This document shows positions 1 through 33,447 of a stretch of 45,574 bases of DNA, piece by piece. Position numbers and translations under genes: made by a program. Location: the IMG/VR virus record IMGVR_UViG_3300045988_139688; one strand, given 5' to 3'. This DNA is from a virus. A model generated the notes under the pieces. The model was not told where the DNA came from. It did no database searches and saw nothing but the letters and a program-made list of their open reading frames with translations. Each line of letters opens with the position of its first letter. Position 1 is the stretch's first letter.

Positions 1-119
1 ACTTTTTTGTTTAGGCTGCTGACCCTAGGTATCATACTAGAAAGCTTACCAATTGCAGTTCCTACTGCAGCACCTGCAGATTTTAATGTTTCGGTAAATC
101 TTTCAAAAATTCCTTTGCT
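1..119. repeat. Terminal direct repeat, left copy (identical to 45456..45574); circular-assembly overlap or short terminal redundancy
   Basis: nt 1..119 (acttttttgtttaggctgctgaccc...aaaaattcctttgct) recur exactly as the last 119 nt. The repeat lies inside one continuous minus-strand reading frame. Confidence 0.95.
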
Positions 120-11654: not shown

Positions 11655-11721
11655 AGTTTACGAATTGTTAATAATTATTTTACTAAATATACTTTATTAT
11701 TGTTACAATTGGTAGTATAAT
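11655..11721 (+). promoter_or_regulatory. Conserved promoter cassette, copy A (drives the first early operon)
   Basis: agtttacgaaTTGTTAATAAttatTTTACtaaatATACTTTATT-N14-gtAGTATAAT. Same architecture as copies B-G. Confidence 0.65.
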
Positions 11722-11787
11722 AAGGATGTAAAATAAATAAGACGGAACGCAAACAACACTAAGGTAAATATGAAAGGAGTTAATCAG

Positions 11788-13964: not shown

Positions 13965-14030
13965 GTTAATAAATTGTTAATAATTAATTTACCAAAACTA
14001 CTTTATTGTGCAATGTAAAAGAAGTATAAT
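13965..14030 (+). promoter_or_regulatory. Conserved promoter cassette, copy B
   Basis: gttaataaaTTGTTAATAAttaaTTTACcaaaacTACTTTATT-gtgcaatgtaaaaga-AGTATAAT. Confidence 0.65.
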
Positions 14031-14080
14031 GATAATCATAAAGGAACACCTGAAACAGAAATCTAAAAGGAGAGATTATT

Positions 14081-14386: not shown

Positions 14387-14455
14387 TTTGTTAATAAATT
14401 GTTAATAACTTTTTTACTAAAAAGACTTTATTTGCTCTTTCGAAAGTAGTATAAT
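14387..14455 (+). promoter_or_regulatory. Conserved promoter cassette, copy C (its -10 is bracketed by a 10-bp inverted repeat)
   Basis: tttgttaataaaTTGTTAATAActtTTTTACtaaaaagACTTTATT...gtAGTATAAT. The inverted repeat is CTCTTTCGAA 14435..14444 / TTCGAAAGAG 14465..14474. Confidence 0.65.
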
Positions 14456-14556: not shown

Positions 14557-14790
14557 ATGACCTGTCTGGAAAGGGAAAAGGTCAAGGAAGAACTTGACTA
14601 TTTAGAACGCAAGTGTGAGTTGGCTGAGAAACGACTCGAGCAGGAACGCAAAGAGCACAGAAGCTGTGAGAAAGTGAAAGATGCAATATGTATTGCAATC
14701 ATTATCTTTGCAATAACCATGAGCGTGGTTATCGGGGTAGACTTCATGAATTACCTAGATTCATTGGACTACCTGAGCTCACTGAGATAA
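14557..14790 (+). CDS. Small membrane-anchored coiled-coil protein
   Basis: 77 aa. Charged helical N-terminus and one TM segment (AICIAIIIFAITMSVVIGV). Confidence 0.65.
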   Translation: MTCLEREKVKEELDYLERKCELAEKRLEQERKEHRSCEKVKDAICIAIIIFAITMSVVIGVDFMNYLDSLDYLSSLR

Positions 14791-14819
14791 TCAAGAATCA
14801 TACAAGGAGGAATTTTAAA

Positions 14820-15374
14820 ATGTCAATAACTGTTAACCCATATGACATAAACGATACATGTAGAGTGTATCAGAGTTTAATGCACGGACTCATAATGAGA
14901 TACCCTGAATTCAAGGCTCTCGACACCTATTTGAAAGAACATCACTTCAAAGACCAGCCTGCATCTACCAAATACCATCTTAACATATCTGGAGGTCTTC
15001 TGTTACACTCTGTTAATGTAGCTCTTGTCCTTGATAAGCTGACTTCAGAACTCAATCTTCAGTGGCAACGTGCCGAAAGCCCAATTATTGTTGGTCTGTT
15101 TCATGACCTCTGTAAGCTTGATGCTTATCAACAAGACCTTGATGGATTTACATACAACGAAGACCAGCTTATCAAGGGTCATGGTGACAAATCAGTCATG
15201 GTGTTGAGCCAATTTACAACCTTGACCGAGGAAGAAGTTCTTTGTATTCGCTATCACATGGGAGCATATGAGACTGATAGCTGGAAGCAATTTGATTCAG
15301 CTATCAAGAGATACCCGAATGTGTTATTCACTCATACAGCTGACATGATAGCAAGTAAGCTCTGGGAGGATTGA
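14820..15374 (+). CDS. HD-domain phosphohydrolase (candidate dNTP/dNMP hydrolase)
   Basis: ATG 14820 after AAGGAGG. Metal-ligand pattern H...HD...H...D: KYHLN..LLLHS, GLFHDLCK, KGHGDKS, IRYHMG. Confidence 0.7.
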   Translation: MSITVNPYDINDTCRVYQSLMHGLIMRYPEFKALDTYLKEHHFKDQPASTKYHLNISGGLLLHSVNVALVLDKLTSELNLQWQRAESPIIVGLFHDLCKLDAYQQDLDGFTYNEDQLIKGHGDKSVMVLSQFTTLTEEEVLCIRYHMGAYETDSWKQFDSAIKRYPNVLFTHTADMIASKLWED

Positions 15375-16429
15375 TGATGAAGAATAAACCTGCAGATGAC
15401 TTCTACATTGATGTATCCTATTCAAATCTTGATATGACGCTGCCACAGACTAAGAAGATAAAGACGGCTAGACCAATTTTGGATGAAGACGTTTGGAACA
15501 CATTCATATATTACATCAAGGAACGGTATCACATACACGTTTTGAAGGATGTGAAGAAGCTCCCGAAGCCATGGACAAAAGATACCATACTGAAGACGTA
15601 CAGATTCACAAATGTACGTCGGGAGCATGACAAAGAAACAAAATGGCTTATCAAACACATAGCGAAGAATTCAGATTTGTCCTATGAAGACAAATTGCTA
15701 AATTGCATTCTGTTTAGGATGTTCAATAAGCATGAAACTGCCGAGATACTCAATATGCCAATTGTATTTGATGAAACCTATGACCCTGAGAATTATCGTG
15801 AGAGGCTTGAGCAGAAGGCGAAGCAAGACCCTGAGTATGTATTCTTTACACAGGCATTCTTCACAAGTGGTCAGAAGCTTGGAGCTGCTTGTTACACTCC
15901 TGGAGGGCTTAACGAGCGCAATATGGTTATAAGAATGCTCTACTTGGCACAGCATTTGGCTTCTGAAAGGATAGCAGAAGGCATTGGACAAAGCTCAGAT
16001 GGATGCTATGTTAACCCATACAATATTATATCCTTGCTTGCTTCGTACAAAGGTATTGGTGAATTTCTGTCTTACCAGATATTTGTTGATTTCACCTACA
16101 TACCTGAATTTCCGTACAGTGAGAATGAGTATGTAATAGCTGGTCCAGGCTGCAGAAATGGTTTAAGCTATCTGTTCAGAAATACAGACGGAATGACTGA
16201 CGAAGAATGCCTCTTTTGGGTAAGGAACAACTGGGATGAGCTAATTACTCGATACAAAAATGATTGGAACCCCGAAGAAATCTTTGTCGATTTGCCTGAA
16301 GAGGAACAAAAGATGAACATCATGAGTCTGGAGAACTGTTTCTGCGAACTCAGCAAGTACATCCGAGCAAAAGAGCACAAGGGTAGACCAAGAACAAAAT
16401 ACAATGGTTTTAAGGAGAAGTTGATATGA
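15374..16429 (+). CDS. All-helical protein, candidate DNA base-hypermodification enzyme (aGPT-Pplase / amino-acid:DNA transferase-like)
   Basis: About 351 aa. The N-terminal pattern ERYHIHVLKDVKKLPKPWTKDTILKTYRFTNVRREHDKETKWL matches my recollection of that family. Context is HD, dCMP deaminase and MazG. Not verified by HMM. Confidence 0.45.
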   Translation: MMKNKPADDFYIDVSYSNLDMTLPQTKKIKTARPILDEDVWNTFIYYIKERYHIHVLKDVKKLPKPWTKDTILKTYRFTNVRREHDKETKWLIKHIAKNSDLSYEDKLLNCILFRMFNKHETAEILNMPIVFDETYDPENYRERLEQKAKQDPEYVFFTQAFFTSGQKLGAACYTPGGLNERNMVIRMLYLAQHLASERIAEGIGQSSDGCYVNPYNIISLLASYKGIGEFLSYQIFVDFTYIPEFPYSENEYVIAGPGCRNGLSYLFRNTDGMTDEECLFWVRNNWDELITRYKNDWNPEEIFVDLPEEEQKMNIMSLENCFCELSKYIRAKEHKGRPRTKYNGFKEKLI

Positions 16430-16923
16430 ATAGGGCACATGGAATATTTAACTATCTGAATTTGCTGGATTTAGCACACAGCTATGCTAAGGCAGAATCA
16501 GGTTGCTGTAAAGTGACAGTTGGTAGTGTTATAGTTGAGGACAAGCAAAACCTAAGAATACTTGCTTTTGGTGCAAATAAAACTCTGCCAGTCAATTGCA
16601 AGAGCAAGGGTTGTTTAAGAATCCAGAAATATGGTAATGATGACAAAACTCATCGTAACCCTGACGACTGTAGGGCAATACACAGCGAGATTGCTGCCAT
16701 AGCAGCTGCAGCCAGACAAGGTATTTCTTTGGAGGGGGCAACGATTGTTGTTACAAGATACCCCTGTGAAGCTTGTGCAAGAGCCATTGTAGAAGCTGGA
16801 ATACAAAAGGTTGTGTATGGTAGAGAGCAAACGATGTCACAATACAGCTATGATATCTTTAAATCTGCGAAAGTAACAGTAATACACTGTTCTGATTGGA
16901 TAGAACAAGACGCAATAAACTAA
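16426..16923 (+). CDS. dCMP deaminase (ComEB/Dctd family)
   Basis: Zinc motifs HSEIAAI and PCEACARAI with correct spacing; 165 aa. Confidence 0.85.
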   Translation: MNRAHGIFNYLNLLDLAHSYAKAESGCCKVTVGSVIVEDKQNLRILAFGANKTLPVNCKSKGCLRIQKYGNDDKTHRNPDDCRAIHSEIAAIAAAARQGISLEGATIVVTRYPCEACARAIVEAGIQKVVYGREQTMSQYSYDIFKSAKVTVIHCSDWIEQDAIN

Positions 16924-16935
16924 GGAGGTACACAT

Positions 16936-17283
16936 ATGAATTTAACAGAACAACAGATTAACACCTTGGAAGAAGCTCGTAGAGTTTATGGTAATACAGC
17001 TCAGTTACTGGTATCAATCGAAGAACTCAATGAGCTGGCTTGTGTGGTTGCTAAATTTCCAAGATATGATACAGAAGAGGAAGCACGAGCGAAGCTTCAC
17101 CAGAAGGCATTGGACGAAGTTGCTGACGTCTACATTGTTCTTAACCACATTGAGACTATTCTTGGACTTGAGATGTCAGAAATTGCAAGCAGAATTGCAA
17201 GCAAGATAGACCGAGTCAATCGCTGGGTCAGCACAAATGATAAGTTCAGTCAAACACTTGTAGACAGAAACGTGGTGGAATAG
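16936..17283 (+). CDS. MazG-like all-alpha nucleoside triphosphate pyrophosphohydrolase
   Basis: 115 aa. EELNELACVVAKF ... ALDEVADVYIVLNHI matches the E-x-x-E ... E/D-x-x-D helical pattern of the small MazG family. Confidence 0.7.
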   Translation: MNLTEQQINTLEEARRVYGNTAQLLVSIEELNELACVVAKFPRYDTEEEARAKLHQKALDEVADVYIVLNHIETILGLEMSEIASRIASKIDRVNRWVSTNDKFSQTLVDRNVVE

Positions 17284-20123: not shown

Positions 20124-20347
20124 ATACCAAAATAAAAATTGAAATCTGCCCTAAGTGTCTTGGCACTGGTAAAATCAGACCAAAACAGCATCTTGTACAA
20201 ACTTCTTTGTATGACTCTGACTGGGTTCAAGACCAAGATTATGAGTGTCCAGAATGTCAAGGTTCAGGACGTGTAGTTGCAACAATCACACCTTACGTTG
20301 AAGACAAGGTGTTTGATTTGAATCATCAGGAGGTATCTCAAAAATGA
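20120..20347 (+). CDS. DnaJ-type zinc-finger mini-protein
   Basis: Two CxxCxGxG units: CPKCLGTGK and CPECQGSGR. Confidence 0.7.
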   Translation: MNTKIKIEICPKCLGTGKIRPKQHLVQTSLYDSDWVQDQDYECPECQGSGRVVATITPYVEDKVFDLNHQEVSQK

Positions 20348-22053
20348 GGTATGCTACAATTGATATTGAGACCACAGGACTGAATCGGTACAAAGACAAG
20401 ATAACCTGGATAGGAGTGGGCTTGGCTCAAGATACTAACAGTGATATTTCTAAGATGTTTATCTATGATGCAGATAGCCCAAAAGACATTCACAAATTCA
20501 AGAACCTTGTAAACAATCTGCACAAGCACAAAGTCAAGACTGTTTTTCAGAATGGCAAGTTTGATACCCTGTTCATCGAGGAAGCCCTAAGCATTAAGAT
20601 ACCGATTCACGAAGACATATTGCTAATGGGTACGGCTTATGACCTAGTTGCAGAACACGGACTGAAGAAGATGGCTCAACGGTATCTTGGTGTATGCGAT
20701 TGGGATATTTCAAAAAAGGAGAAGCTTGCAGGCAATTCTGATACTGTAGTCCCATATCTGAAAGATGATGTTACCTATTCTTGGCAACTGTTTAGATATT
20801 TTTTGGACAACATGACTGAACAACAGTTGAAAATCTATTACAAATTACTAAAACCAGCATATTTGACATACAGGGATATTGAACGTAATGGAGTGTACAT
20901 TGATTTGAAGAAGCTGAAATCAGTCCGCAAGACCTATGCAACTAGAGAAGCCCAATGCCTGAATAAGTTGAATGCTAAGTACAAGATAAACTGGAATAGC
21001 GCAGGTCAAATTCAAGAGGTGTTATTCAACAAAGAGAAAATGCCAATACTTGCAAAATCGGAGAAAACTGGTAAACCCTCTGCAAGTGCGTCTGTGCTGA
21101 AAAAACTGGCCAATAAGGGGTATGAAATACCTCAGCTTATCCTTGATTACAAGGCTGTTAACACCTTGAACAAGATGTTCTTGAGCCGTTGGGAGGGTGA
21201 TTTAGGTTCAGATTTGCGTATTCATCCTTCGTTCAATCTCACCAATGTTCGCACAGGGCGAACAAGTTGTCAAAATCCAAATCTACAACAAGTGCCGAGA
21301 AATCTTGATGTGCGAAGTTTGTTTAATGCCCCCGGAGGACGGCTATTTTTTGAGGCTGACTATTCACAGCTGGAATTGAGAATAGCTGCTGATTATGCTA
21401 ACGATAAGACTATGCTTGAGATATATCACAACAACGGTGATATACATACTACGACAGCCAAATTGATGACAGGCGGAAGAGAGCCAACCAAGGAAGAACG
21501 TGGTAAGGCTAAGGCAGTTAACTTTGGATTTTTGTATGGAATGTCAGCTCGCAAGTTTGTAGAATATGCCTATGACTCATATGGGGTAGTGTTCACGAGG
21601 TCAGAAGCTGAGACTTTCAGAAAGTTGTTTTTTGCCAAGTATAATAGGCTCTTGCCTTGGCATCATGAGCAAGAATTATTGTGTGAAGCTTTAGGCGGTG
21701 TTGCAAACAAGTTCGGCAGATTTAGGTCACTTCCAGACATCTATTCTAGCAACAAATTTGAACGCTCAGGAGCAGTCAGACGAGCTATTAATACCCCTGT
21801 ACAGGGAACAGGCTCAGATTTGCTTATCTCAGCAGTTACTCAAATCAATAAGGAGTTTAAACCCTATGGCTTGAAGGTTGTTGGCACAGTTCATGACTCT
21901 ATCCTTGGTGAATTCAATGAGAAGGATAGAGATTGGATTGTCCCAGAGATACGCAGAATCATGTTACACCCAAGAGTTCTTGATGATTTTGAAGTGGAAT
22001 TAAAAGTGCCATTGGAAGTTGATATCGGAGTTGGTCCTTGGGGTACTCATTAA
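20344..22053 (+). CDS. Family A DNA polymerase with 3'-5' exonuclease domain
   Basis: ExoI ATIDIETTGL. Pol motifs RTGRTSCQNPNLQQVP, DYSQLELRIAA, KAVNFGFLYGMS and VHDSI. Confidence 0.92.
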   Translation: MRYATIDIETTGLNRYKDKITWIGVGLAQDTNSDISKMFIYDADSPKDIHKFKNLVNNLHKHKVKTVFQNGKFDTLFIEEALSIKIPIHEDILLMGTAYDLVAEHGLKKMAQRYLGVCDWDISKKEKLAGNSDTVVPYLKDDVTYSWQLFRYFLDNMTEQQLKIYYKLLKPAYLTYRDIERNGVYIDLKKLKSVRKTYATREAQCLNKLNAKYKINWNSAGQIQEVLFNKEKMPILAKSEKTGKPSASASVLKKLANKGYEIPQLILDYKAVNTLNKMFLSRWEGDLGSDLRIHPSFNLTNVRTGRTSCQNPNLQQVPRNLDVRSLFNAPGGRLFFEADYSQLELRIAADYANDKTMLEIYHNNGDIHTTTAKLMTGGREPTKEERGKAKAVNFGFLYGMSARKFVEYAYDSYGVVFTRSEAETFRKLFFAKYNRLLPWHHEQELLCEALGGVANKFGRFRSLPDIYSSNKFERSGAVRRAINTPVQGTGSDLLISAVTQINKEFKPYGLKVVGTVHDSILGEFNEKDRDWIVPEIRRIMLHPRVLDDFEVELKVPLEVDIGVGPWGTH

Positions 22054-22073: not shown

Positions 22074-22139
22074 ATTAATAAATTGTTAATAATTAATTTA
22101 CCAAAAATACTTTATTGTACTCCATAAAAGTAGTATAAT
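22074..22139 (+). promoter_or_regulatory. Conserved promoter cassette, copy D
   Basis: attaataaaTTGTTAATAAttaaTTTACcaaaaaTACTTTATT-gtactccataaaagt-AGTATAAT; nearly identical to copy B. Confidence 0.65.
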
Positions 22140-22176
22140 GATAATCAGAAAGGAAAACAAGGAGGAGTTCAATCAG

Positions 22177-22859: not shown

Positions 22860-22926
22860 AGTTTACGAATTGTTAATAAATTGTTTATCAAATATACTTT
22901 ATTTGGTGCTCAATAAGTAGTATAAT
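22860..22926 (+). promoter_or_regulatory. Conserved promoter cassette, copy E
   Basis: agtttacgaaTTGTTAATAAattgTTTATcaaatATACTTTATT-tggtgctcaataagt-AGTATAAT. The first 20 nt are identical to copy A. Confidence 0.65.
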
Positions 22927-23021
22927 AAGGATGTAAACGAAAGAACAATTTAAATATGACATTCACGAGATAACGTGGTATATTATGAAATCAAAATTAA
23001 TCTTTTCGGAGGTACAAAATC

Positions 23022-25991: not shown

Positions 25992-26678
25992 ATGAGCAGA
26001 AGAAGAAAGATTGATATGACAAATGTTGAGTCATTTGTAAGATGTACAGAGGGTGAGCATATTGCTAAGCTCGTTGAGGTTCAGGAAAACACAACTCAGG
26101 CAGGAGATGACATGCTTACTTGTGTATTTGAAGTTATCAAAGGCAGCAGCAAGGGTGCAAGAGTGTACGATAATTTTGTTTTGACAGACAAGGCTCTGTG
26201 GAAACTGAAACAGCTGCTTCAGGCTTTCGGCATCAAAGCAGATGGTAAGATTGTTCTTGACCTTGATAAGCTGGTTGGAAAGATTTGTAACATCACAGTG
26301 TACCATGAAGAGTACAACGGCAAGCCCAAGGCAAGAATTGATGAGTATACAGTTATTGAGTCTGCCGATGATGAAGAAGATGAAGACTTCGATGAAGATG
26401 AGGACGAAGAAGTTGAAGAAGAGAAGCCTGTTAAAAAACCAGCTAAATCTACAAAACCAAAGACCAAGAAGAAGCCTGAGCCTGAGCCTGAAGAGGAAGA
26501 GGACGATGATGATTGGGATGAGGATGACGACGAGGAAGAGGACACTCCAAAGAAGCCTGTGAAAAAGCCAGCTAAGAAAGCTACAAAGCCAAACAAGAAG
26601 AAAACTACAACCAAGAAGCCTGAGCCTGAAGATGATGACGAGGATTGGGATGATGACGAGGATTGGGAGGAAGACTGA
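25992..26678 (+). CDS. DUF669-type phage single-strand DNA-binding protein with long polyampholyte tail
   Basis: The N-terminal about 125 aa form an OB-like region (FEVIKGSSKGARVYDNFVLTDKALWKLKQL). The tail alternates acidic and Lys/Pro blocks and ends DDDEDWDDDEDWEED. Confidence 0.65.
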   Translation: MSRRRKIDMTNVESFVRCTEGEHIAKLVEVQENTTQAGDDMLTCVFEVIKGSSKGARVYDNFVLTDKALWKLKQLLQAFGIKADGKIVLDLDKLVGKICNITVYHEEYNGKPKARIDEYTVIESADDEEDEDFDEDEDEEVEEEKPVKKPAKSTKPKTKKKPEPEPEEEEDDDDWDEDDDEEEDTPKKPVKKPAKKATKPNKKKTTTKKPEPEDDDEDWDDDEDWEED

Positions 26679-26684
26679 GTAATT

Positions 26685-26712
26685 CAAGGGGTGTAAACAC
26701 CCCTTGATTTTT
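26685..26712 (+). terminator. Intrinsic terminator/attenuator ahead of the modification block
   Basis: CAAGGGGTG-taaa-CACCCCTTG followed by ATTTTT. The RBS of the next gene follows immediately. Confidence 0.6.
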
Positions 26713-26726
26713 AAGGAGGAAGTCAT

Positions 26727-27725
26727 ATGGACTTATACAAGATTCCTGGAGATACTGGTGGAGATTGGAGACTTCAGAAATTTGTAGAATATCAACACGA
26801 AGTTCCAAGCATACATTACAGGGTATTGGGTGAGTACATAAAAAAATACCAAATCAATAAAAACAGAGCTGTTCTTATGTGTTGGTATATGTCTTGCACA
26901 TATAACGAAGTAACATGTGTATTGATGAATGAATTGATTAGCCCTAAGCTATTAAAAGACAAGACTTATGTCAATAAATTCTGGAAACAATATAAGGCTG
27001 TTCTTGATTTTGGGTCAAGCCGAAAGTACGCTAAGAACATGGACTGGATACCAGAGTTATTGCCTGAGTTCTTCAAACATGTACGAGGGAAGCCCTATGA
27101 TTGGCTAAAGACATTTCCTGATGGCAAGATTGGGTATTCTCAGATATATTCAGAAATTTCTAATCTCAAATATGTCGGAAGATTTGCTACTGATTTGTTT
27201 ATGGAATCCTTGTTGTATCTAAATGATTATTTTGGAACTAACTACATAGAACCAGAAAAACTCGATTGGAAGAACTGCAGTAACCTTACATCTGGTTTGC
27301 TTAACATCTTCTATAAGGATGAAGAAGCAAATTTGTTTGATAAAACTCACAAACTGCCTGTAGAAGAGGATTTGCTTAATGAGTATCTTTCTAAGGTCAA
27401 AGATGCAATATATCAGACTTATCCTGAACAAAGAGATGATGGTATCAATTTGTTTGTTGGAAAGATATGTAGCTTTAGGAATTTGTTCAAAAATTCAAGA
27501 TACGGAGGGTTCCATCATGATAGAGAACTAGGGGTGCTAAAAGCTTATGAGAAAGCTCTTCCTGAGTATTCTTATCTTTGGAGAAGATTCTATGGGCTGA
27601 GACGAGATATGTTTCCCAAGCACCTACTGGGTGAGCTAAATGGCTGGAACGGAATTAGAAGGGAACGCAAAAAGTTGTTTCTCTCTCAAGGACTTACAGG
27701 AGTAGAGATGAATGACCATGAATAG
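26727..27725 (+). CDS. All-helical orphan coupled to the P-loop kinase (candidate 5-HMUDK helical module or aGPT-Pplase-like transferase)
   Basis: 332 aa with an AAGGAGG RBS. It ends 10 nt before the kinase start and has no enzymatic motif I can name. Confidence 0.4.
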   Translation: MDLYKIPGDTGGDWRLQKFVEYQHEVPSIHYRVLGEYIKKYQINKNRAVLMCWYMSCTYNEVTCVLMNELISPKLLKDKTYVNKFWKQYKAVLDFGSSRKYAKNMDWIPELLPEFFKHVRGKPYDWLKTFPDGKIGYSQIYSEISNLKYVGRFATDLFMESLLYLNDYFGTNYIEPEKLDWKNCSNLTSGLLNIFYKDEEANLFDKTHKLPVEEDLLNEYLSKVKDAIYQTYPEQRDDGINLFVGKICSFRNLFKNSRYGGFHHDRELGVLKAYEKALPEYSYLWRRFYGLRRDMFPKHLLGELNGWNGIRRERKKLFLSQGLTGVEMNDHE

Positions 27726-27735
27726 GAGAGTTGCT

Positions 27736-28362
27736 ATGAAATTTATTACAAACAGGGTCATTGTAAATATCAGGGGAACAAACGGCTCTGGAAAAAGCTC
27801 AATCCCATTGAGTATGTTAGATGACCCAGAGCAGTTTATAGTCAAGAAGCCCTATAAAGGCAAGCAAATCAAGATTTTGACTGTATTTCCAACATATAAC
27901 TGGGTTGCTTTAGGAGCTTATGAAAAGGGCAAGACTTGTGGTGGAATGGATACATTACCTAACAACGAATTAACACAAAAGGCTTTTTGGTATGCCCTCA
28001 GAAAATATCCTGAATACAACTTGTTGATGGAAGGAATTATTGCCTCAACAATATACTCAACATACGCAAAGCTTTTTGCAGAAACTCAGACAAAATACCC
28101 TGACACAAAGGTTGTTGTATTGCATTTGACCCCTGGATTACACACATGTCTAAAACGAATACAAAATAGAAATGGTGGCAAGCCTATCAAAGAAAATCTT
28201 GTCGCAGATAAGATTAAGGCGATTAACCGAGCTGTGGACAAGTTTGAACCAGAAGTCAAGGTTATTAAATGGAATAACACAGGTTCCATGAAGAAATATC
28301 GGCACCAGAAGTTGATTTATCAAGTTGAAGAAATTATTGAAGACAACATAATCCCATTTTAA
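27736..28362 (+). CDS. P-loop kinase (candidate 5-hydroxymethylpyrimidine DNA kinase)
   Basis: ATG 27736 after AGGAG. Walker A IRGTNGSGKSS and Walker B-like NLLMEG. About 208 aa; distinct from the Tmk-like kinase downstream. Confidence 0.5.
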   Translation: MKFITNRVIVNIRGTNGSGKSSIPLSMLDDPEQFIVKKPYKGKQIKILTVFPTYNWVALGAYEKGKTCGGMDTLPNNELTQKAFWYALRKYPEYNLLMEGIIASTIYSTYAKLFAETQTKYPDTKVVVLHLTPGLHTCLKRIQNRNGGKPIKENLVADKIKAINRAVDKFEPEVKVIKWNNTGSMKKYRHQKLIYQVEEIIEDNIIPF

Positions 28363-28378
28363 TCAGGAGGATACAGCT

Positions 28379-28546
28379 ATGAGAATACGAAGTTCTGAAT
28401 ATAAAGCCCTAAAAGAGTCTATTGAACTCATCGCAAAGGGAATAATCAAATCTGCTCAGGTGTCAGAGAGCATTAAAGCCTACAAAGTTCCACAATCTAA
28501 AGGCTACACAATAAGGATTGATATAAGGGTCAAAAATGATGAGTAA
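28379..28546 (+). CDS. Small hypothetical protein (55 aa, below the track cutoff)
   Basis: ATG 28379 lies 8 nt after CAGGAGG. Peptide MRIRSSEYKALKESIELIAKG...RVKNDE, stop at 28544..28546. Confidence 0.5.
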   Translation: MRIRSSEYKALKESIELIAKGIIKSAQVSESIKAYKVPQSKGYTIRIDIRVKNDE

Positions 28547-28650
28547 ACCTATCCTGTTGCATTCCGAGCTATTAAAGACCAATTTGTTTGGAAATTTTGG
28601 AAGCAACAAGTAAAAACGTAACATAGACTAAATTAAGGAGGAGTTCTATT

Positions 28651-29133
28651 ATGCTGATAGTTCTTGAAGGCTGCGACGGAAGCGGAAAAACAACCATTGC
28701 AAATTTGATTGCTCCGCTTATCGGAGCAGAGATAATCCATTGTACAGCTGAGACACCAAATACCTATGAGTGGTTTATTGGAATCTTGGATAAATCCAAG
28801 GAAGTAAACATAATCGCAGACAGATTCTGCTATGGGCAATTCGTATACCAAGACCCTTGTGACCGAAGTTTGAATGAAGTTGCATTGAGAAGTCTTGAAA
28901 GCATGCTAAAAGCAGCAAATACCAAGGTTGTTTATGTTGATGCTGATTCAAGAATCATAAAACATAGGCTCAACAAACGTGGAGAATTAACAGAGATACC
29001 TGTAGAAGAGATACAACGACGCTATAGGCAAGTGTTTACTGAATCTACAATGGATGTTTATGTAATCAAGACTGATGAACCGAGTATGTGCATATCTAAA
29101 TTTGCACAGAGAGGAGGATTAAACCATGGTTAA
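28651..29133 (+). CDS. Thymidylate-kinase-type dNMP kinase
   Basis: MLIVLEGCDGSGKTT is the Tmk P-loop signature (EGxDGxGKTT); 160 aa. Confidence 0.75.
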   Translation: MLIVLEGCDGSGKTTIANLIAPLIGAEIIHCTAETPNTYEWFIGILDKSKEVNIIADRFCYGQFVYQDPCDRSLNEVALRSLESMLKAANTKVVYVDADSRIIKHRLNKRGELTEIPVEEIQRRYRQVFTESTMDVYVIKTDEPSMCISKFAQRGGLNHG

Positions 29134-29830
29134 TTCTAACATTGTAATAACAGCTAAGACTGCTAATGAGGCTTGGGAACAATGGTGGACCATTCTTCAA
29201 ACAGATATACCTGAGCAGCCACAAAATTCAAGAGATGGAGCTGTGCATAACGAGGTCTTAAATGCAGTTACAATCATTGAAGACCCTACCAGAAGCATTG
29301 TAACCAGCTCAATACGCAAAATGCCAATGAGATATGCCATCGGAGAAATGCTCTGGTACCTGTCTGGCAAATCAGAGCTTTCGGAGATACAGAAGTACAC
29401 CAAGAACTGGGATAGGATGTCAGACGATGGAAAGACTGTAAATTCCAACTATGGCTGGTGTATCAAGCACAAATATGGTTTTGACCAATGGGAATTTGTG
29501 AAGCGGTTACTTACAAATGCCCCTGAGACTAGGCAAGCAGTCATCCACATTAAAACAGCCGATAATACACCTAGCAAGGATGTTAATTGTACAGTTTGCT
29601 TACAGTTCTTCCTTCGGGATGGAAAGCTATATCTGACAACTTACATGAGGTCTAATGACCTCTGGATGGGCTTTCCATATGATGTATTTCAGTTCATGAA
29701 CATGCAGGTTTTGATGGCTATGGAACTGCATGCTGACCTAGGCACGTATACCCATATAGCAGGGTCTTTACATCTATATGAGAGAGATTTTTTGAAGGCT
29801 TTGGACGGCTCAAATGTAGCTTCTAGGTGA
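29126..29830 (+). CDS. ThyA-family pyrimidine deoxynucleotide hydroxymethylase (Asp at the Asn177-equivalent position)
   Basis: IGEMLWYLSG, NSNYGW, catalytic Cys in VNCTVCLQFF, and YMRSNDLWMGFPYD. Cys-to-Arg spacing of 20 is the same as in E. coli ThyA. Confidence 0.75.
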   Translation: MVNSNIVITAKTANEAWEQWWTILQTDIPEQPQNSRDGAVHNEVLNAVTIIEDPTRSIVTSSIRKMPMRYAIGEMLWYLSGKSELSEIQKYTKNWDRMSDDGKTVNSNYGWCIKHKYGFDQWEFVKRLLTNAPETRQAVIHIKTADNTPSKDVNCTVCLQFFLRDGKLYLTTYMRSNDLWMGFPYDVFQFMNMQVLMAMELHADLGTYTHIAGSLHLYERDFLKALDGSNVASR

Positions 29831-29838
29831 CTTGTCCT

Positions 29839-30189
29839 ATGAAACCAATTATGCAAAAGGTACTTGTAAAGGTACTGAGAAATGGAGACATTCGTTGGGT
29901 TCATTTTTCAGCTGTGCCTAAAGAACTGTATGACAGCTTCTTTAGGCTCACTGAGACTGAGCCGTTGGATTTGAACGCATACTTGTCTAAATGGTGTAAA
30001 GAAGATTTTGATACATCCTTGAACATGGGTAAATACGATGACATTTATCACCTCAAGCTAGCAATAAACGAAAGATTTCAAGCTGAATATGCTGAACTAT
30101 ACGGAGCAGCAGGAATGCCTGAAATCAGGGGCTGGGTTCGAATGTGGCTATCACAGCATATGAGAGAGGAGATTGCAAAATATGAATGA
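29839..30189 (+). CDS. Hypothetical protein
   Basis: ATG 29839 lies 8 nt after AGGTGA; 116 aa. Confidence 0.6.
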   Translation: MKPIMQKVLVKVLRNGDIRWVHFSAVPKELYDSFFRLTETEPLDLNAYLSKWCKEDFDTSLNMGKYDDIYHLKLAINERFQAEYAELYGAAGMPEIRGWVRMWLSQHMREEIAKYE

Positions 30190-30514
30190 TGTAACCAACA
30201 AACTACGGATTATAGCAGTTGATTTTGATGGAACTCTTGTCTATGACAAATTCCCTGATATTGGTGCACCAAGAGCCGAAATATGGGATAAAGTCAAAAA
30301 AGAACAGCTTAATGGTTCAAAAATCATCCTGTGGACTTGCAGAAACGGGGAAGCCCTTAAAGCAGCAGTTGAATTCTGCATCAACCGAGGACTACATTTT
30401 GATGCTATTAATGAAAATCTTGATGAAATCAAGACTTTATATGGGGGAGATACCAGAAAGGTATTTGCTGATGAATACTGGGATGATAAAGCTCTTTATA
30501 TGGGAGGGTTGTAA
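30182..30514 (+). CDS. HAD-superfamily phosphatase-like protein
   Basis: Motif I IIAVDFDGTL (DxDGT); small single-domain size (110 aa). Confidence 0.55.
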   Translation: MNDVTNKLRIIAVDFDGTLVYDKFPDIGAPRAEIWDKVKKEQLNGSKIILWTCRNGEALKAAVEFCINRGLHFDAINENLDEIKTLYGGDTRKVFADEYWDDKALYMGGL

Positions 30515-32748: not shown

Positions 32749-32803
32749 ATTTATACCTCCAAGTGTATTAGAGCTTTGTGCTCTTGTTTTTTCTTACAAG
32801 TAT

Positions 32804-32868
32804 ATTATATTACTTTTGTAGCTTGAAATAAAGTATTTTTGGTAAAATAATTATTAACAAATTATAAA
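32804..32868 (-). promoter_or_regulatory. Conserved promoter cassette, copy F (minus strand)
   Basis: The reverse complement reads gtttataatTTGTTAATAAttatTTTACcaaaaaTACTTTATT-tcaagctacaaaagt-AATATAAT. Confidence 0.6.
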
Positions 32869-33447
32869 CTATTTGTACTTTTTATGAATGCAGGATTGAA
32901 TCTCAAGGATGTAGTTCATGTCATAGCCTACTGCCCTAAGCTTTATCAGATATTTGTATATGGTTTTCAGCTCGCAGGTTACGTCTTTAATCAAGCAATC
33001 CACTTTAGCTGCATCTGCCATATTGCCCATTTCACAAAGGGCTTTCGAATAGTCCTCATAACAGTGCTTTGTCTCTTCTTCCCAAGTTTTGTAAGCTTCA
33101 AAAGAGGATTCAACATATTGCTTACGCAATTGAGCTGTAACATCCATTCGAGTATAGTTGTACCAATCTTCAGGTACAACTGAAGCAGGAGCTTCTGAAT
33201 TACAGTTCAAAAGCTTATTGTGTGTAGACATGAAGTAGTGCTTTGTCTTTTGAAATTCCTTGGACTCCTCACAGAATTGATGGTGGTGCCAGCGTTTGAA
33301 ACCTGCAAGACCAAGAAAGTCATACAAGTCTTTCATCTTGTCATGAAACATGAGAGCTTTGACCTGACGTTTTCCAACCTCTTGAAAAATTTCTGTACAA
33401 GTCATCTCTGATACAGGTTTAACAGTGTTAGTTGTATCAATTACCAT
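32869..33447 (-). CDS. Cys-rich helical protein with ferritin-like helix pattern (orphan operon gene 7)
   Basis: 192 aa with 8 Cys. DLYDFLGLAGFKRWHHHQFCEESKEF resembles the ferritin/Dps helix B region, but the canonical ExxH ligands are not evident. Confidence 0.6.
   Translation of the reverse strand: MVIDTTNTVKPVSEMTCTEIFQEVGKRQVKALMFHDKMKDLYDFLGLAGFKRWHHHQFCEESKEFQKTKHYFMSTHNKLLNCNSEAPASVVPEDWYNYTRMDVTAQLRKQYVESSFEAYKTWEEETKHCYEDYSKALCEMGNMADAAKVDCLIKDVTCELKTIYKYLIKLRAVGYDMNYILEIQSCIHKKYK

What the first reader, a model, noticed from the sequence alone, without database searches (positions are those of the whole stretch)
26727..29830. Compact candidate DNA base-hypermodification module: helical orphan + P-loop DNA-kinase-like protein + Tmk-type kinase + ThyA-family hydroxymethylase
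These genes form one tightly packed plus-strand run (with a 55-aa orphan ORF at 28379..28546) behind a leaky-looking terminator (26685..26712).
(i) 26727..27725 is a 332-aa all-helical orphan.
(ii) 27736..28362 is a P-loop kinase (GTNGSGKSS, LLMEG) that starts 10 nt after (i).
(iii) 28651..29133 is a thymidylate-kinase-type dNMP kinase (EGCDGSGKTT).
(iv) 29126..29830 is a ThyA-fold enzyme with a catalytic Cys and an RSND motif.
This is the gene logic of the thymidine-hypermodification pathways established for phages SP10, PhiW-14, ViI and M6. There, the nucleotide is 5-hydroxymethylated and incorporated by the phage polymerase (here 20344..22053). A P-loop kinase (5-HMUDK) then phosphorylates the hydroxymethyl group in DNA. 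A helical aGPT-Pplase / amino-acid:DNA transferase displaces the phosphate.
I see no PLP enzyme, radical-SAM enzyme, glycosyltransferase or methyltransferase anywhere in the genome. The end product would therefore be either a simple first-step adduct or a chemistry not yet described. The set is unusually minimal for a 45-kb Firmicutes siphophage.
Basis: partly seen in the sequence, partly recalled or inferred. Interest (0 to 1): 0.85.

Follow-up and report, generated by a model that had tools for sequence, protein, structure and literature searches.

The report
Gut-phage DNA base hypermodification gene module
This uncultured human-gut phage carries a real kinase-plus-transferase system for decorating a hydroxymethylated DNA base, but the enzyme that makes that base looks cytosine-specific rather than thymine-type, and near-identical sibling phages carry a different transferase in the same slot.

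Summary
The kinase is a clear 5-hmdU-DNA-kinase family member (Pfam PF18748, 92 bits). The 332-aa helical protein is not an orphan. It has the fold of the solved 5-PmdU glycinyltransferase PaMx11 gp46 and belongs to a large metagenomic family, but to a divergent clade that keeps the catalytic Cys and lacks the essential neighbouring Glu. More parts lie outside the given coordinates, at 14688-17283: an HD phosphohydrolase, an HMUDK_hel protein (225 bits), a dCMP deaminase and a MazG-like NTPase. A HAD phosphatase sits at 30173-30514.

Two points change the interpretation. (1) The ThyA-like enzyme has the dCMP-hydroxymethylase signature of T4 gp42, not that of the dUMP hydroxymethylases of SPO1, SP10 and M6. 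All 38 distinct relatives of this type that sit beside such a kinase share it. (2) Sibling phages 96-98% identical in the flanks replace the transferase gene with an unrelated Glu-containing allele, and some add a glycosyltransferase-like gene.

So this is a kinase/transferase hypermodification module fed by 5-hm-dCMP. The DNA substrate is either 5hmC, which would be undescribed chemistry, or 5hmU made by deaminating 5-hm-dCMP. A minimal gene set is not unusual.

The parts
14688..15374 (+). HD-domain metal-dependent phosphohydrolase. Candidate dNTP/dNMP pool-clearing enzyme.
   Evidence: phrog_5889 9e-30 and phrog_28876 'metal-dependent phosphohydrolase' 8e-22. Pfam HD scores 21.8 bits, just under the cut-off of 22. 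Directly abuts the next gene.
15374..16429 (+). HMUDK_hel protein (former aGPT-Pplase clade 1). Helical paralogue that accompanies 5-HMUDK systems; its role has not been established.
   Evidence: Pfam PF18723, E 1.6e-66, 225 bits against a cut-off of 25 (also precomputed). Homologues are present in LysYB1, SP10-like and M6-like loci.
16426..16923 (+). dCMP deaminase. Overlaps the stop of the HMUDK_hel gene by 4 nt.
   Evidence: Pfam PF00383 4.5e-18; phrog_174 'dCMP deaminase' 4e-33. Found in relatives whose loci extend far enough upstream.
16936..17283 (+). MazG-like nucleoside triphosphate pyrophosphohydrolase. Candidate for excluding a canonical dNTP.
   Evidence: phrog_2245, 4e-12. Homologues in 20 of 37 relatives with the cytosine-type hydroxymethylase and in 0 of 25 with the uracil type.
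20344..22053 (+). A-family DNA polymerase with 3'-5' exonuclease. Would have to incorporate the hydroxymethylated dNTP.
   Evidence: Precomputed Pfam DNA_pol_A_exo1 and DNA_pol_A.
26684..26712 (+). Terminator-like hairpin plus T-run at the left edge of the swapped transferase cassette.
   Evidence: 10-bp stem, 6 GC pairs, 4-nt loop, then TTTTT. Nucleotide similarity to sibling phages ends at 26682.
26727..27725 (+). AADT-like DNA base transferase of a divergent Glu-less clade ('clade I': GK[IL]CSFRNLFK...RYGG[FY]HHDRQ). Candidate enzyme that displaces the phosphate from the phosphorylated hydroxymethyl base.
   Evidence: - AF2 pLDDT 96.
- Foldseek PDB top 3 are PaMx11 gp46/PUGT (prob 0.98-1.0, TM 0.53-0.62); the next hits have TM at most 0.15.
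- BFVD hits are proteins named 'Amino acid:DNA transferase domain-containing', with TM up to 0.74.
- 48 of 85 family members hit PF18724, but this protein does not.
- Cys248 is conserved in 83 of 85, while position 244 is Val, not Glu.
- Fused to HMUDK in relatives.
27736..28362 (+). 5-HMUDK-family P-loop DNA base kinase.
   Evidence: Pfam PF18748, E 4.1e-26, 92 bits against a cut-off of 27. It is 30% identical to the experimentally verified M6 gp54, with the RG.NG.GK, EG..STI and RNGGKPIKE motifs shared.
28379..28546 (+). Conserved 55-aa ORF of unknown function.
   Evidence: Called in public assemblies and nearly identical in siblings. No family hit.
28580..28582 (.). Empty insertion site. 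Siblings L142-L144 carry here a 732-bp insert encoding a 276-aa glycosyltransferase-like protein.
   Evidence: blastn breakpoints. The insert protein hits phrog_842 'beta-glucosyl-HMC-alpha-glucosyltransferase' at 7e-11 and Pfam TAGT at 3e-3.
28651..29133 (+). Small P-loop dNMP-kinase-like protein of the thymidylate-kinase superfamily. Occupies a variable slot.
   Evidence: - Pfam Thymidylate_kin 2.7e-11.
- Below the NCBIfam dTMP-kinase cut-off.
- Best solved relative is SPbeta YorR, 8e-11.
- Relatives hold other genes in this slot: unclassified P-loop proteins, dUTPase, DUF1599, or a TAGT-like glycosyltransferase.
29126..29830 (+). ThyA-family pyrimidine hydroxymethylase with the dCMP (cytosine) signature.
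   Evidence: - Pfam PF00303 3.3e-24.
- Best solved relative is MilA CMP hydroxymethylase, 8e-30, against thymidylate synthases at 1e-15 or weaker.
- Residues at E. coli positions 143/146/147/166/169/177 are D/C/T/R/D/D, identical to T4 gp42. SPO1, SP10, M6 and LysYB1 have D/C/N/R/D/N.
29827..30189 (+). Conserved 116-120-aa protein of unknown function, always immediately downstream of the cytosine-type hydroxymethylase.
   Evidence: Present in 36 of 37 cytosine-type loci and 0 of 25 uracil-type loci. No family hits. The AF2 model has low confidence, pLDDT 65.
30173..30514 (+). Small HAD-type phosphatase (BT0820 family). Candidate nucleotidase.
   Evidence: NCBIfam NF046079 1.2e-25, below its cut-off; phrog_24386 4e-34. 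Homologues lie next to hydroxymethylases in 36 of 37 cytosine-type and 5 of 25 uracil-type loci.

Best explanation
The window is the complete genome (about 45.46 kb) of an uncultured human-gut siphophage of Gram-positive bacteria. It encodes a two-stage DNA base hypermodification system.

**Before replication**
- The ThyA-like enzyme (29126-29830) hydroxymethylates dCMP to 5-hm-dCMP. This is inferred from active-site residues.
- A small dNMP kinase (28651-29133) and host kinases raise it to the triphosphate.
- The HD, MazG-like and HAD hydrolases and the dCMP deaminase reshape the nucleotide pool.
- The phage A-family polymerase incorporates the modified nucleotide.

**After replication**
- The 5-HMUDK-family kinase (27736-28362) phosphorylates the hydroxymethyl group in DNA.
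- The adjacent AADT-like protein (26727-27725) attacks C6 of the flipped base with Cys248, expels phosphate to form an exocyclic methylene, and adds a nucleophile from a host metabolite.
- No tailoring enzymes were detected, so this first adduct would be the final base.

I think the most likely DNA substrate is 5-hydroxymethylcytosine. The product would then be a 5-(X-methyl)cytosine, a cytosine counterpart of the known thymidine pathway.

The transferase gene is a swappable cassette. Sibling phages carry a different, Glu-containing allele in the same slot, sometimes with an added glycosyltransferase-like gene. This implies that different strains make different adducts.

**What is shown:** family and fold assignments, active-site signatures, synteny, gene fusions and cassette breakpoints.
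**What is inferred:** every enzymatic activity, the identity of the base, and the nucleophile.

**Confidence.** The stated confidence of 0.45 is for the whole statement, including cytosine as the DNA substrate. That this is a kinase/transferase hypermodification module fed by a dCMP-type hydroxymethylase I hold at about 0.9.
For: **The module is of the kinase/transferase kind (confidence about 0.9)**
- HMUDK: PF18748, 92 bits, with motifs shared with the verified M6 gp54.
- HMUDK_hel: 225 bits.
- Transferase fold: top PDB hits are PaMx11 gp46 only, and AADT-named proteins dominate the BFVD hits.
- The transferase-like gene and the kinase gene are 10 nt apart here and fused into a single protein of about 531 aa in relatives.
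- The gene order is conserved across related viral contigs of about 28-53 kb.

**The base starts as cytosine**
- The hydroxymethylase has Asp186 at the position of T4 Asp179 (E. coli Asn177). It has Thr after the catalytic Cys, as T4 does. It has an acidic residue at position 143, the hydroxymethyl marker. It has Asp rather than Asn at position 169, so it is not a 5-hydroxy-dCMP synthase (rules in PMC8670742 and PMC13326640).
- Its best solved relative is the CMP hydroxymethylase MilA.
- Its next cultured relatives after the Agathobaculum phages are Enterococcus VPE25-like phages, where the gene lies near an annotated beta-glucosyltransferase.
- 70 distinct hydroxymethylases in the fetched loci split cleanly into DCTRDD and DCNRDN. 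Of those with an HMUDK in the locus, 38 are the Asp type.
- The genome has no second ThyA-family gene.

**5hmC stays in the DNA**
- Sibling strains insert a gene resembling HMC-directed glycosyltransferases into the module.
- A more distant relative, L008, has a TAGT-like gene in the same slot.

**The transferase is a swappable cassette**
- blastn breakpoints lie at 26682/27720, with 96-98% identity in the flanks.
Against: - Every characterised 5-HMUDK and AADT acts on 5-hmdU, not 5-hmdC (PMC8989533, PMC13458397, PMC11472151). The searchable literature holds no report of a 5hmC DNA kinase.
- The same Glu-less transferase clade also occurs with Asn-type (dUMP) hydroxymethylases, in Lysinibacillus phage LysYB1 and in locus L064. 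The clade itself is therefore not cytosine-specific.
- A dCMP deaminase is conserved and translationally coupled to the HMUDK_hel gene. It could convert 5-hm-dCMP to 5-hm-dUMP.
- The HAD phosphatase family is shared with uracil-type phages.
- The transferase lacks the Glu that is essential in M6 gp51 and ViI gp247.
- No activity has been measured for any of these proteins.
Confidence: 0.45

Rival explanations
1. The post-replicative machinery is the same, but it acts on 5-hydroxymethyluracil reached by a reordered precursor route. dCMP is first hydroxymethylated by the Asp-type enzyme. The phage dCMP deaminase (16426-16923) then deaminates 5-hm-dCMP to 5-hm-dUMP. The Tmk-like kinase phosphorylates that, and the DNA initially carries 5hmU in place of T. 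The final product would be a hypermodified thymidine, as in PhiW-14 or SH-Ab 15599. The pre-replicative order of reactions would be new.
For: - The kinase, transferase and HMUDK_hel families are known only with 5hmU substrates (PMC8989533).
- The deaminase is found in relatives whose loci reach that region, and it overlaps the HMUDK_hel gene.
- The monophosphate kinase in this genome is of the thymidylate-kinase superfamily.
- The Glu-less transferase clade and the HAD phosphatase also occur in Asn-type, 5hmU-type phages.
- Both transferase clades occur with Asp-type enzymes, as expected if the DNA substrate had not changed.
Against: - A dCMP deaminase is equally expected in a 5hmC phage; T4 has one.
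- There is no evidence that this deaminase prefers 5-hm-dCMP.
- Glycosyltransferase-like genes in siblings resemble HMC-directed families.
- In most relatives the Tmk-like gene is replaced by other P-loop proteins that match no family.
Confidence: 0.3
2. The ThyA-like enzyme is a dUMP hydroxymethylase despite its Asp, the deaminase feeds it dUMP, and this is a canonical thymidine hypermodification cluster.
For: - The closest cultured homologue, in Agathobaculum phages, is annotated 'deoxyuridylate hydroxymethyltransferase'.
- The overall gene logic matches M6 and SH-Ab 15599.
Against: - That annotation is automatic, and the Agathobaculum protein also has Asp.
- Positions 147 and 177 co-vary perfectly and match T4 gp42, not SPO1, SP10 or M6.
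- Mutagenesis cited in PMC8670742 shows that Asn/Asp at this site switches dUMP/dCMP preference.
Confidence: 0.1
3. The phage only replaces C by 5hmC. The Glu-less helical protein is not a working transferase; it is a binding or regulatory paralogue. The kinase product, or plain 5hmC, would then be the end state.
For: - The essential Glu is missing, along with a second acidic residue (D98) that is conserved in the Glu-containing clade.
- The protein has no Pfam hit.
- It has no sequence-level match to M6 gp51.
Against: - The Cys and about 15 other core residues are conserved across both clades. His263 is invariant among the 25 clade I sequences examined, which suggests a rewired rather than a dead site.
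- The gene occupies exactly the slot held by a Glu-containing allele in siblings.
- It is fused to the kinase in relatives.
Confidence: 0.07

Closest known systems
Thymidine hypermodification pathways of Pseudomonas phages M6 and PaMx11 and Salmonella phage ViI (5-HMUDK plus amino-acid:DNA transferase, former aGPT-Pplase2)
   Same: - A P-loop DNA base kinase of the same Pfam family, sharing motifs with M6 gp54.
- A helical transferase with the PaMx11 gp46 fold and a conserved Cys.
- An HMUDK_hel paralogue.
- A ThyA-family hydroxymethylase, a dCMP deaminase and hydrolases nearby.
   Different: - The hydroxymethylase has the cytosine (Asp) signature, not Asn.
- The transferase lacks the essential Glu and falls below the Pfam threshold.
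- There are no PLP, radical-SAM, FAD or acetyltransferase tailoring genes.
Minimal diamine pathways: PhiW-14 alpha-putrescinylthymine and Acinetobacter phage SH-Ab 15599 alpha-dapT (dUMP HMase, dTTPase/dUTPase, dCMP deaminase, 5-HMUDK, Pplase2/DADT)
   Same: - The gene count and logic are the same: a hydroxymethylase, a deaminase, an NTP hydrolase, a kinase and one transferase.
- The first adduct, made from a host metabolite, is the end product.
   Different: - Those systems use a verified dUMP hydroxymethylase and a Glu-containing transferase.
- Here the precursor enzyme is of the dCMP type and the transferase belongs to another clade.
T4 pre-replicative 5hmC pathway (gp42 dCMP hydroxymethylase, gp1 dNMP kinase, Cd dCMP deaminase, gp56 dCTPase, glucosyltransferases)
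   Same: - The hydroxymethylase active-site signature is identical at the six positions compared (DCTRDD).
- A deaminase and a candidate NTP pyrophosphohydrolase are present.
- Siblings carry an HMC-glycosyltransferase-like gene.
   Different: - T4 decorates 5hmC by glycosylation only.
- No T4-like phage is known to phosphorylate 5hmC or to use an AADT-like enzyme.
Herelleviridae clusters of Bacillus phage SP10 (alpha-glutamylthymine) and Lysinibacillus phage LysYB1
   Same: LysYB1 has the closest cultured homologue of the 332-aa protein (45% identity, also Glu-less). It is followed by an HMUDK, an HMUDK_hel protein, a hydroxymethylase and a HAD phosphatase homologue.
   Different: - The LysYB1 and SP10 hydroxymethylases are Asn-type (dUMP).
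- The LysYB1 protein carries an extra C-terminal domain of about 300 aa.
- These are 144-kb myoviruses, not 45-kb siphoviruses.

Membership tests
5-HMUDK (Pfam PF18748, 5-hmdU DNA kinase) | Scores above the curated Pfam threshold | tested here: met
   92.1 bits against a cut-off of 27, E 4.1e-26.
5-HMUDK (Pfam PF18748, 5-hmdU DNA kinase) | Walker A P-loop and family motifs shared with an experimentally verified member (M6 gp54) | tested here: met
   RGTNGSGKS, MEGIIASTI and RNGGKPIKE align with M6 gp54; 30% identity.
5-HMUDK (Pfam PF18748, 5-hmdU DNA kinase) | Phosphorylates the 5-hydroxymethyl group of 5-hmdU in DNA | not testable with these tools
   Needs an in vitro assay on SP8 (5hmU) and T4gt (5hmC) DNA.
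Amino-acid:DNA transferase (AADT, aGPT-Pplase clade 2, Pfam PF18724) | Scores above the curated Pfam threshold | tested here: not met
   No hit at E 0.1 or better for the window protein. 48 of 85 family members do hit, best 5e-22. The LysYB1 homologue scores 22.8 bits against a cut-off of 26.2.
Amino-acid:DNA transferase (AADT, aGPT-Pplase clade 2, Pfam PF18724) | Two-helix-bundle fold of PaMx11 gp46/PUGT | tested here: met
   The Foldseek PDB top 3 are 8z2m/8z2n, prob 0.98-1.0, TM 0.53-0.62 over 311-317 columns; the next hits have TM at most 0.15. BFVD proteins named AADT reach TM 0.74.
Amino-acid:DNA transferase (AADT, aGPT-Pplase clade 2, Pfam PF18724) | Catalytic cysteine (Cys247 in PaMx11 gp46) | tested here: met
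   Cys248 is conserved in 83 of 85 family members. It sits in the same ...LC... position as the E-[TS]-x-L-C motif of the Glu-containing clade.
Amino-acid:DNA transferase (AADT, aGPT-Pplase clade 2, Pfam PF18724) | Essential glutamate four residues before the cysteine (Glu243 in gp46; Glu-to-Ala inactivates M6 gp51 and ViI gp247) | tested here: not met
   Position 244 is Val. No Glu is seen at this position in any sequence of this clade examined, which instead has invariant His263, Lys246 and Asn252.
Amino-acid:DNA transferase (AADT, aGPT-Pplase clade 2, Pfam PF18724) | Encoded next to a 5-HMUDK | tested here: met
   A 10-nt gap here. The two are fused in relatives of about 531 aa that carry PF18748.
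dUMP hydroxymethylase (SPO1 gp29 type) | Asn at E. coli ThyA position 177 (uracil recognition) | tested here: not met
   Asp186 in the window protein. SPO1, SP10, M6 and LysYB1 all have Asn.
dCMP hydroxymethylase (T4 gp42 type) | Catalytic Cys, Asp at position 177, acidic residue at 143 (hydroxymethyl product), Asp (not Asn) at 169 | tested here: met
   D152/C155/T156/R175/D178/D186 give DCTRDD, identical to T4 gp42, whose C148 and D179 were verified against the literature numbering. The rules come from PMC13326640 and PMC8670742.
dCMP hydroxymethylase (T4 gp42 type) | Converts dCMP to 5-hm-dCMP | not testable with these tools
   Needs an enzyme assay or in vivo expression followed by LC-MS.
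HMUDK_hel (Pfam PF18723, former aGPT-Pplase clade 1) | Scores above the curated Pfam threshold | tested here: met
   15374-16429 scores 225 bits against a cut-off of 25, E 1.6e-66, and covers positions 2-276 of the 281-position profile.
Thymidylate kinase (dTMP kinase) | Scores above curated family thresholds | tested here: inconclusive
   Pfam Thymidylate_kin scores 43.9 bits against a cut-off of 27. NCBIfam dTMP kinase scores 51.4 against a cut-off of 83.25. The best solved relative is the uncharacterised SPbeta YorR.

The most novel reading that the evidence does not exclude
A widespread group of human-gut Clostridia phages applies the kinase-plus-transferase chemistry, known so far only for 5-hydroxymethyluracil, to 5-hydroxymethylcytosine. 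This would produce a so far undescribed class of C5-aminoalkyl or amino-acid-modified cytosines. Near-identical strains would exchange transferase alleles (Glu-less versus Glu-containing) and glycosyltransferase inserts, and so vary the adduct.
Probability: 0.45. Interest if true: 0.85.

Novelty: new variant of a known kind. Interest (0 to 1): 0.68.

Why it matters
Kinase/transferase hypermodification has been worked out only for thymine-type bases. Here a whole clade of gut phages couples that machinery to a hydroxymethylase with a cytosine signature. Either outcome is new and directly testable with four or five recombinant proteins:

- a new family of hypermodified cytosines, with a 5hmC DNA kinase that would be useful for 5hmC labelling or sequencing chemistry; or
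- a new precursor route to 5-hm-dUTP that bypasses dUMP.

The Glu-less transferase clade is a natural experiment on the catalytic mechanism proposed for AADTs.

Transferase alleles are replaced between phages that are 96-98% identical in the flanks. This shows DNA modification chemistry diversifying at strain level in the human gut, presumably under pressure from modification-dependent restriction. It also matters for metagenomics, because such DNA may behave abnormally in library preparation, restriction digestion and nanopore base-calling.

Tried and rejected
1. **Glu loss as a marker of a switch to cytosine.** Rejected. The Glu-less clade occurs with Asn-type hydroxymethylases in LysYB1 and L064, and the Glu-containing clade occurs with Asp-type enzymes in 17 distinct loci.
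2. **Direct sequence links from the 332-aa protein to verified AADTs.** All failed:
   - no Pfam or NCBIfam hit;
   - the 85-sequence family profile found nothing among PDB sequences at E 1 or better;
   - hhalign of the clade alignment against M6 gp51 gave probability 0.4.

   The link therefore rests on fold and on transitive homology through family members that do hit PF18724.
3. **Nucleotide search against cultured phages.** The module has no megablast match among 50,697 phage records.
4. **The search for related loci.** It failed with the 85-sequence alignment and with the single protein. A closer 30-sequence alignment worked.
5. **Structure of the conserved 120-aa protein downstream of the hydroxymethylase.** pLDDT was 65, too poor for a fold search. 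No family hits.
6. **tblastn of the siblings' glycosyltransferase-like protein.** It gave only weak partial hits to Microbacterium phage glycosyltransferases, which says nothing about base specificity.
7. **Literature searches.** Searches for a 5hmC DNA kinase, for 5-phosphomethylcytosine and for Agathobaculum phage DNA modification found nothing relevant. The Iyer et al. 2013 paper is not held.
8. **5-hydroxy-dCMP synthase.** I considered that the ThyA-like enzyme might be one. Rejected, because position 169 is Asp, not Asn (PMC13326640).
9. **Host identification.** The genome scan found only phage-like contigs binned into MAGs (Avilachnospira, Acutalibacteraceae, Bacteroidales). This is too weak to name a host.

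Full report
**Where the window comes from**

The window is a complete, circularly assembled phage genome. Bases 1-119 repeat exactly at 45456-45574. The same sequence is a 45,574-bp contig in ENA assembly ERZ27260792, and a near-identical 45,510-bp scaffold exists in another metagenome assembly. The terminase, SPP1-type portal, tape measure, Sipho_Gp37 protein and GH25-LysM endolysin mark it as a siphophage of a Gram-positive host. Its terminase is closest to those of Clostridium and Bacillus phages. No cultured phage matches the module at the nucleotide level.

The hairpin at 26684-26707 with its T-run is a good terminator-like structure. It is followed at once by AAGGAGG and the ATG at 26727. 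The 55-aa ORF is conserved in sibling genomes.

**What the genes are**

- **The kinase (27736-28362)** is an unambiguous member of the 5-hmdU DNA kinase family: PF18748, 92 bits against a threshold of 27. It is 30% identical to M6 gp54, the enzyme shown to phosphorylate 5-hmdU in DNA (PMC8989533). They share the P-loop, an EG..STI motif and RNGGKPIKE.
- **The ThyA-like protein (29126-29830)** hits the thymidylate synthase family (3e-24).
- **The 160-aa P-loop protein (28651-29133)** is only loosely Tmk-like. It passes the Pfam threshold but not the NCBIfam one, and its closest solved relative is the uncharacterised SPbeta YorR.
- **A second block upstream (14688-17283)** belongs to the system. 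It encodes an HD phosphohydrolase, a strong HMUDK_hel protein (former aGPT-Pplase clade 1, 225 bits), a dCMP deaminase overlapping it by 4 nt, and a MazG-like NTP pyrophosphohydrolase.
- **Downstream of the ThyA-like gene** sit a conserved unknown 120-aa protein and a small HAD phosphatase.
- **Tailoring enzymes.** No PLP, radical-SAM, glycosyltransferase or methyltransferase hit is on record for any gene of this genome.

**The helical 332-aa protein (26727-27725)**

It is not an orphan. It has 400 hits in the 90%-identity collection and 161 clusters at 50% identity. It has no Pfam hit of its own, but 48 of 85 aligned family members hit PF18724, the amino-acid:DNA transferase family.

Its AF2 model is very confident (pLDDT 96). 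In the PDB it matches only PaMx11 gp46/PUGT, the 5-PmdU glycinyltransferase, over its full length (prob 0.98-1.0, TM 0.53-0.62). The next hits have TM at most 0.15. Among viral predicted structures, the best match after the LysYB1 homologue is a run of hits that includes proteins named as AADT domain-containing, with TM up to 0.74. In close relatives the protein is fused to the kinase.

The family splits into two clades:

| Feature | Glu-containing clade | Window's clade |
|---|---|---|
| Motif around the Cys | E-[TS]-x-L-C, as in PaMx11 gp46 (E243, T244, C247) and M6 gp51 (ETVLC) | GK[IL]CSFRN, no Glu |
| Position 98 | Asp (98%) | Ala/Ser |
| Position 244 | Glu (100%) | variable (Val here) |
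| Position 246 | Ser/Thr | Lys (88%) |
| Position 252 | Lys | Asn |
| Position 263 | Tyr | His (100%) |

Both clades keep Cys248 and about 15 other core residues. The Glu is essential in M6 gp51 and ViI gp247 (PMC8989533). I therefore call this protein AADT-like, in a sister clade with a rewired active site, and not a member of the defined family.

**The base**

The decisive residues of ThyA-family enzymes are documented:

- Asn177 (E. coli numbering) selects dUMP and Asp selects dCMP.
- An acidic residue at 143 goes with hydroxymethyl products.
- Asn at 169 marks 5-hydroxy-dCMP synthases (PMC8670742, PMC13326640).

The window enzyme reads D143, C146, T147, R166, D169, D177. This is identical to T4 gp42, whose Cys148 and Asp179 I checked against the literature numbering. 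The verified dUMP hydroxymethylases of SPO1, SP10 and M6, and that of LysYB1, read D, C, N, R, D, N.

The best solved relative is the CMP hydroxymethylase MilA (8e-30, against 1e-15 or weaker for thymidylate synthases). Across 70 distinct hydroxymethylases in the loci I fetched, the two signatures never mix. Of those with an HMUDK in the same locus, 38 are the Asp type and 25 the Asn type. The genome has no second ThyA-family gene. So the precursor made here is predicted to be 5-hm-dCMP, not 5-hm-dUMP.

**What this means for the DNA**

Two readings remain.

- **5hmC is the substrate.** 5-hm-dCTP is incorporated and the kinase and transferase work on 5hmC. This is my preferred reading, at about 0.45-0.5.
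- **5hmU is the substrate.** The conserved deaminase converts 5-hm-dCMP to 5-hm-dUMP, and the known 5hmU chemistry follows. I put this at about 0.3.

A more distant relative has a TAGT-like gene in the same slot. After the Agathobaculum phages, the next cultured relatives of the hydroxymethylase are Enterococcus VPE25-like phages, where the gene lies near an annotated beta-glucosyltransferase.

For the second reading: all characterised kinases and transferases of these families use 5hmU. The Glu-less clade and the HAD phosphatase also occur in Asn-type phages. The deaminase is translationally coupled to the HMUDK_hel gene. No paper in the searchable library describes a 5hmC DNA kinase.

**Cassette swapping**

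Contigs L142-L144 and L065 are 96-98% identical to the window on both sides. Between window positions 26682 and 27720 there is no nucleotide similarity. There they carry a 311-aa Glu-containing allele (VVESNLCFFRK; PF18724 at 25.4 bits) instead of the 332-aa gene.

L142-L144 also carry a 732-bp insert at window position 28580-28582 that encodes the 276-aa glycosyltransferase-like protein. L065 lacks it. This gives three haplotypes of one phage. Both transferase alleles occupy the same slot in front of essentially the same kinase, which argues that the Glu-less protein is a working alternative transferase. The slot between kinase and hydroxymethylase is also variable in more distant relatives: unclassified P-loop proteins, dUTPase, DUF1599, or a TAGT-like gene.

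**Comparison with known systems and verdict**

The gene logic is that of the M6, ViI and PaMx11 pathways. In its minimal form it matches PhiW-14 and SH-Ab 15599, where kinase plus transferase give the final base (PMC8989533, PMC13458397). Minimality is therefore not unusual.

Three things are new:

- the cytosine-type precursor enzyme across a whole clade of HMUDK-bearing gut phages;
- an uncharacterised Glu-less transferase clade;
- strain-level exchange of transferase alleles.

I rate this a new variant of a known kind, with interest 0.68. All activities are inferred, and a short set of recombinant assays would settle the base and the adduct.

Noticed in passing
window 1-119 and 45456-45574: The first and last 119 bases are identical. 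This is the signature of a circular or terminally redundant genome closed by a k=119 assembler, so the true genome length is about 45,455 bp.
   Followed up: partly
window 11655-11732, 13966-14046, 14391-14455, 22075-22155, 22860-22937 (+ strand) and 32783-32877 (- strand): Six copies of an intergenic element of about 80 nt, 80-90% identical to each other. Each has an AT-rich stretch (TTAATAAATTGTTAATAATTAAT), then TTTATTGT and a TATAAT box. They are probably a repeated early or middle promoter with an operator.
   Followed up: partly
window 25992-26678: The DUF669 / SSB-like protein ends in a long low-complexity tail of alternating lysine/proline-rich and Asp/Glu-rich blocks. The antisense strand gives spurious long ORFs there.
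   Followed up: no
L142 6134-6229 versus window 26682-26726: Each transferase cassette brings its own, unrelated terminator-like hairpin upstream of the gene. The hairpin therefore travels with the cassette rather than with the preceding gene.
   Followed up: partly
L016/L017 11576-12466: In some relatives the slot between kinase and hydroxymethylase holds a P-loop domain (Pfam AAA_18 only weakly) fused to a DUF4406 domain (1.3e-25).
   Followed up: no
L001 (Lysinibacillus phage LysYB1) 7998-9917: The closest cultured homologue of the 332-aa protein carries an extra C-terminal domain of about 300 aa after a Pro/Glu-rich linker. That domain has no family hit. The cluster around it (kinase, HMUDK_hel, Asn-type hydroxymethylase) suggests LysYB1 has an uncharacterised hypermodified thymidine.
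   Followed up: partly
L002 (Agathobaculum phage AB434P3) 5992-6654: The closest cultured hydroxymethylase homologue (63% identity) is annotated as deoxyuridylate hydroxymethyltransferase but has the Asp (cytosine) signature. No kinase or transferase homologue was found within the 12.6 kb fetched.
   Followed up: partly
window 26727-27725 versus 29827-30189: The exact 332-aa protein was found on only 3 public contigs. A 99%-identical form of the 120-aa protein downstream was indexed in 88 blocks of the collection. The Glu-less allele may therefore be a minority haplotype of this phage.
   Followed up: no
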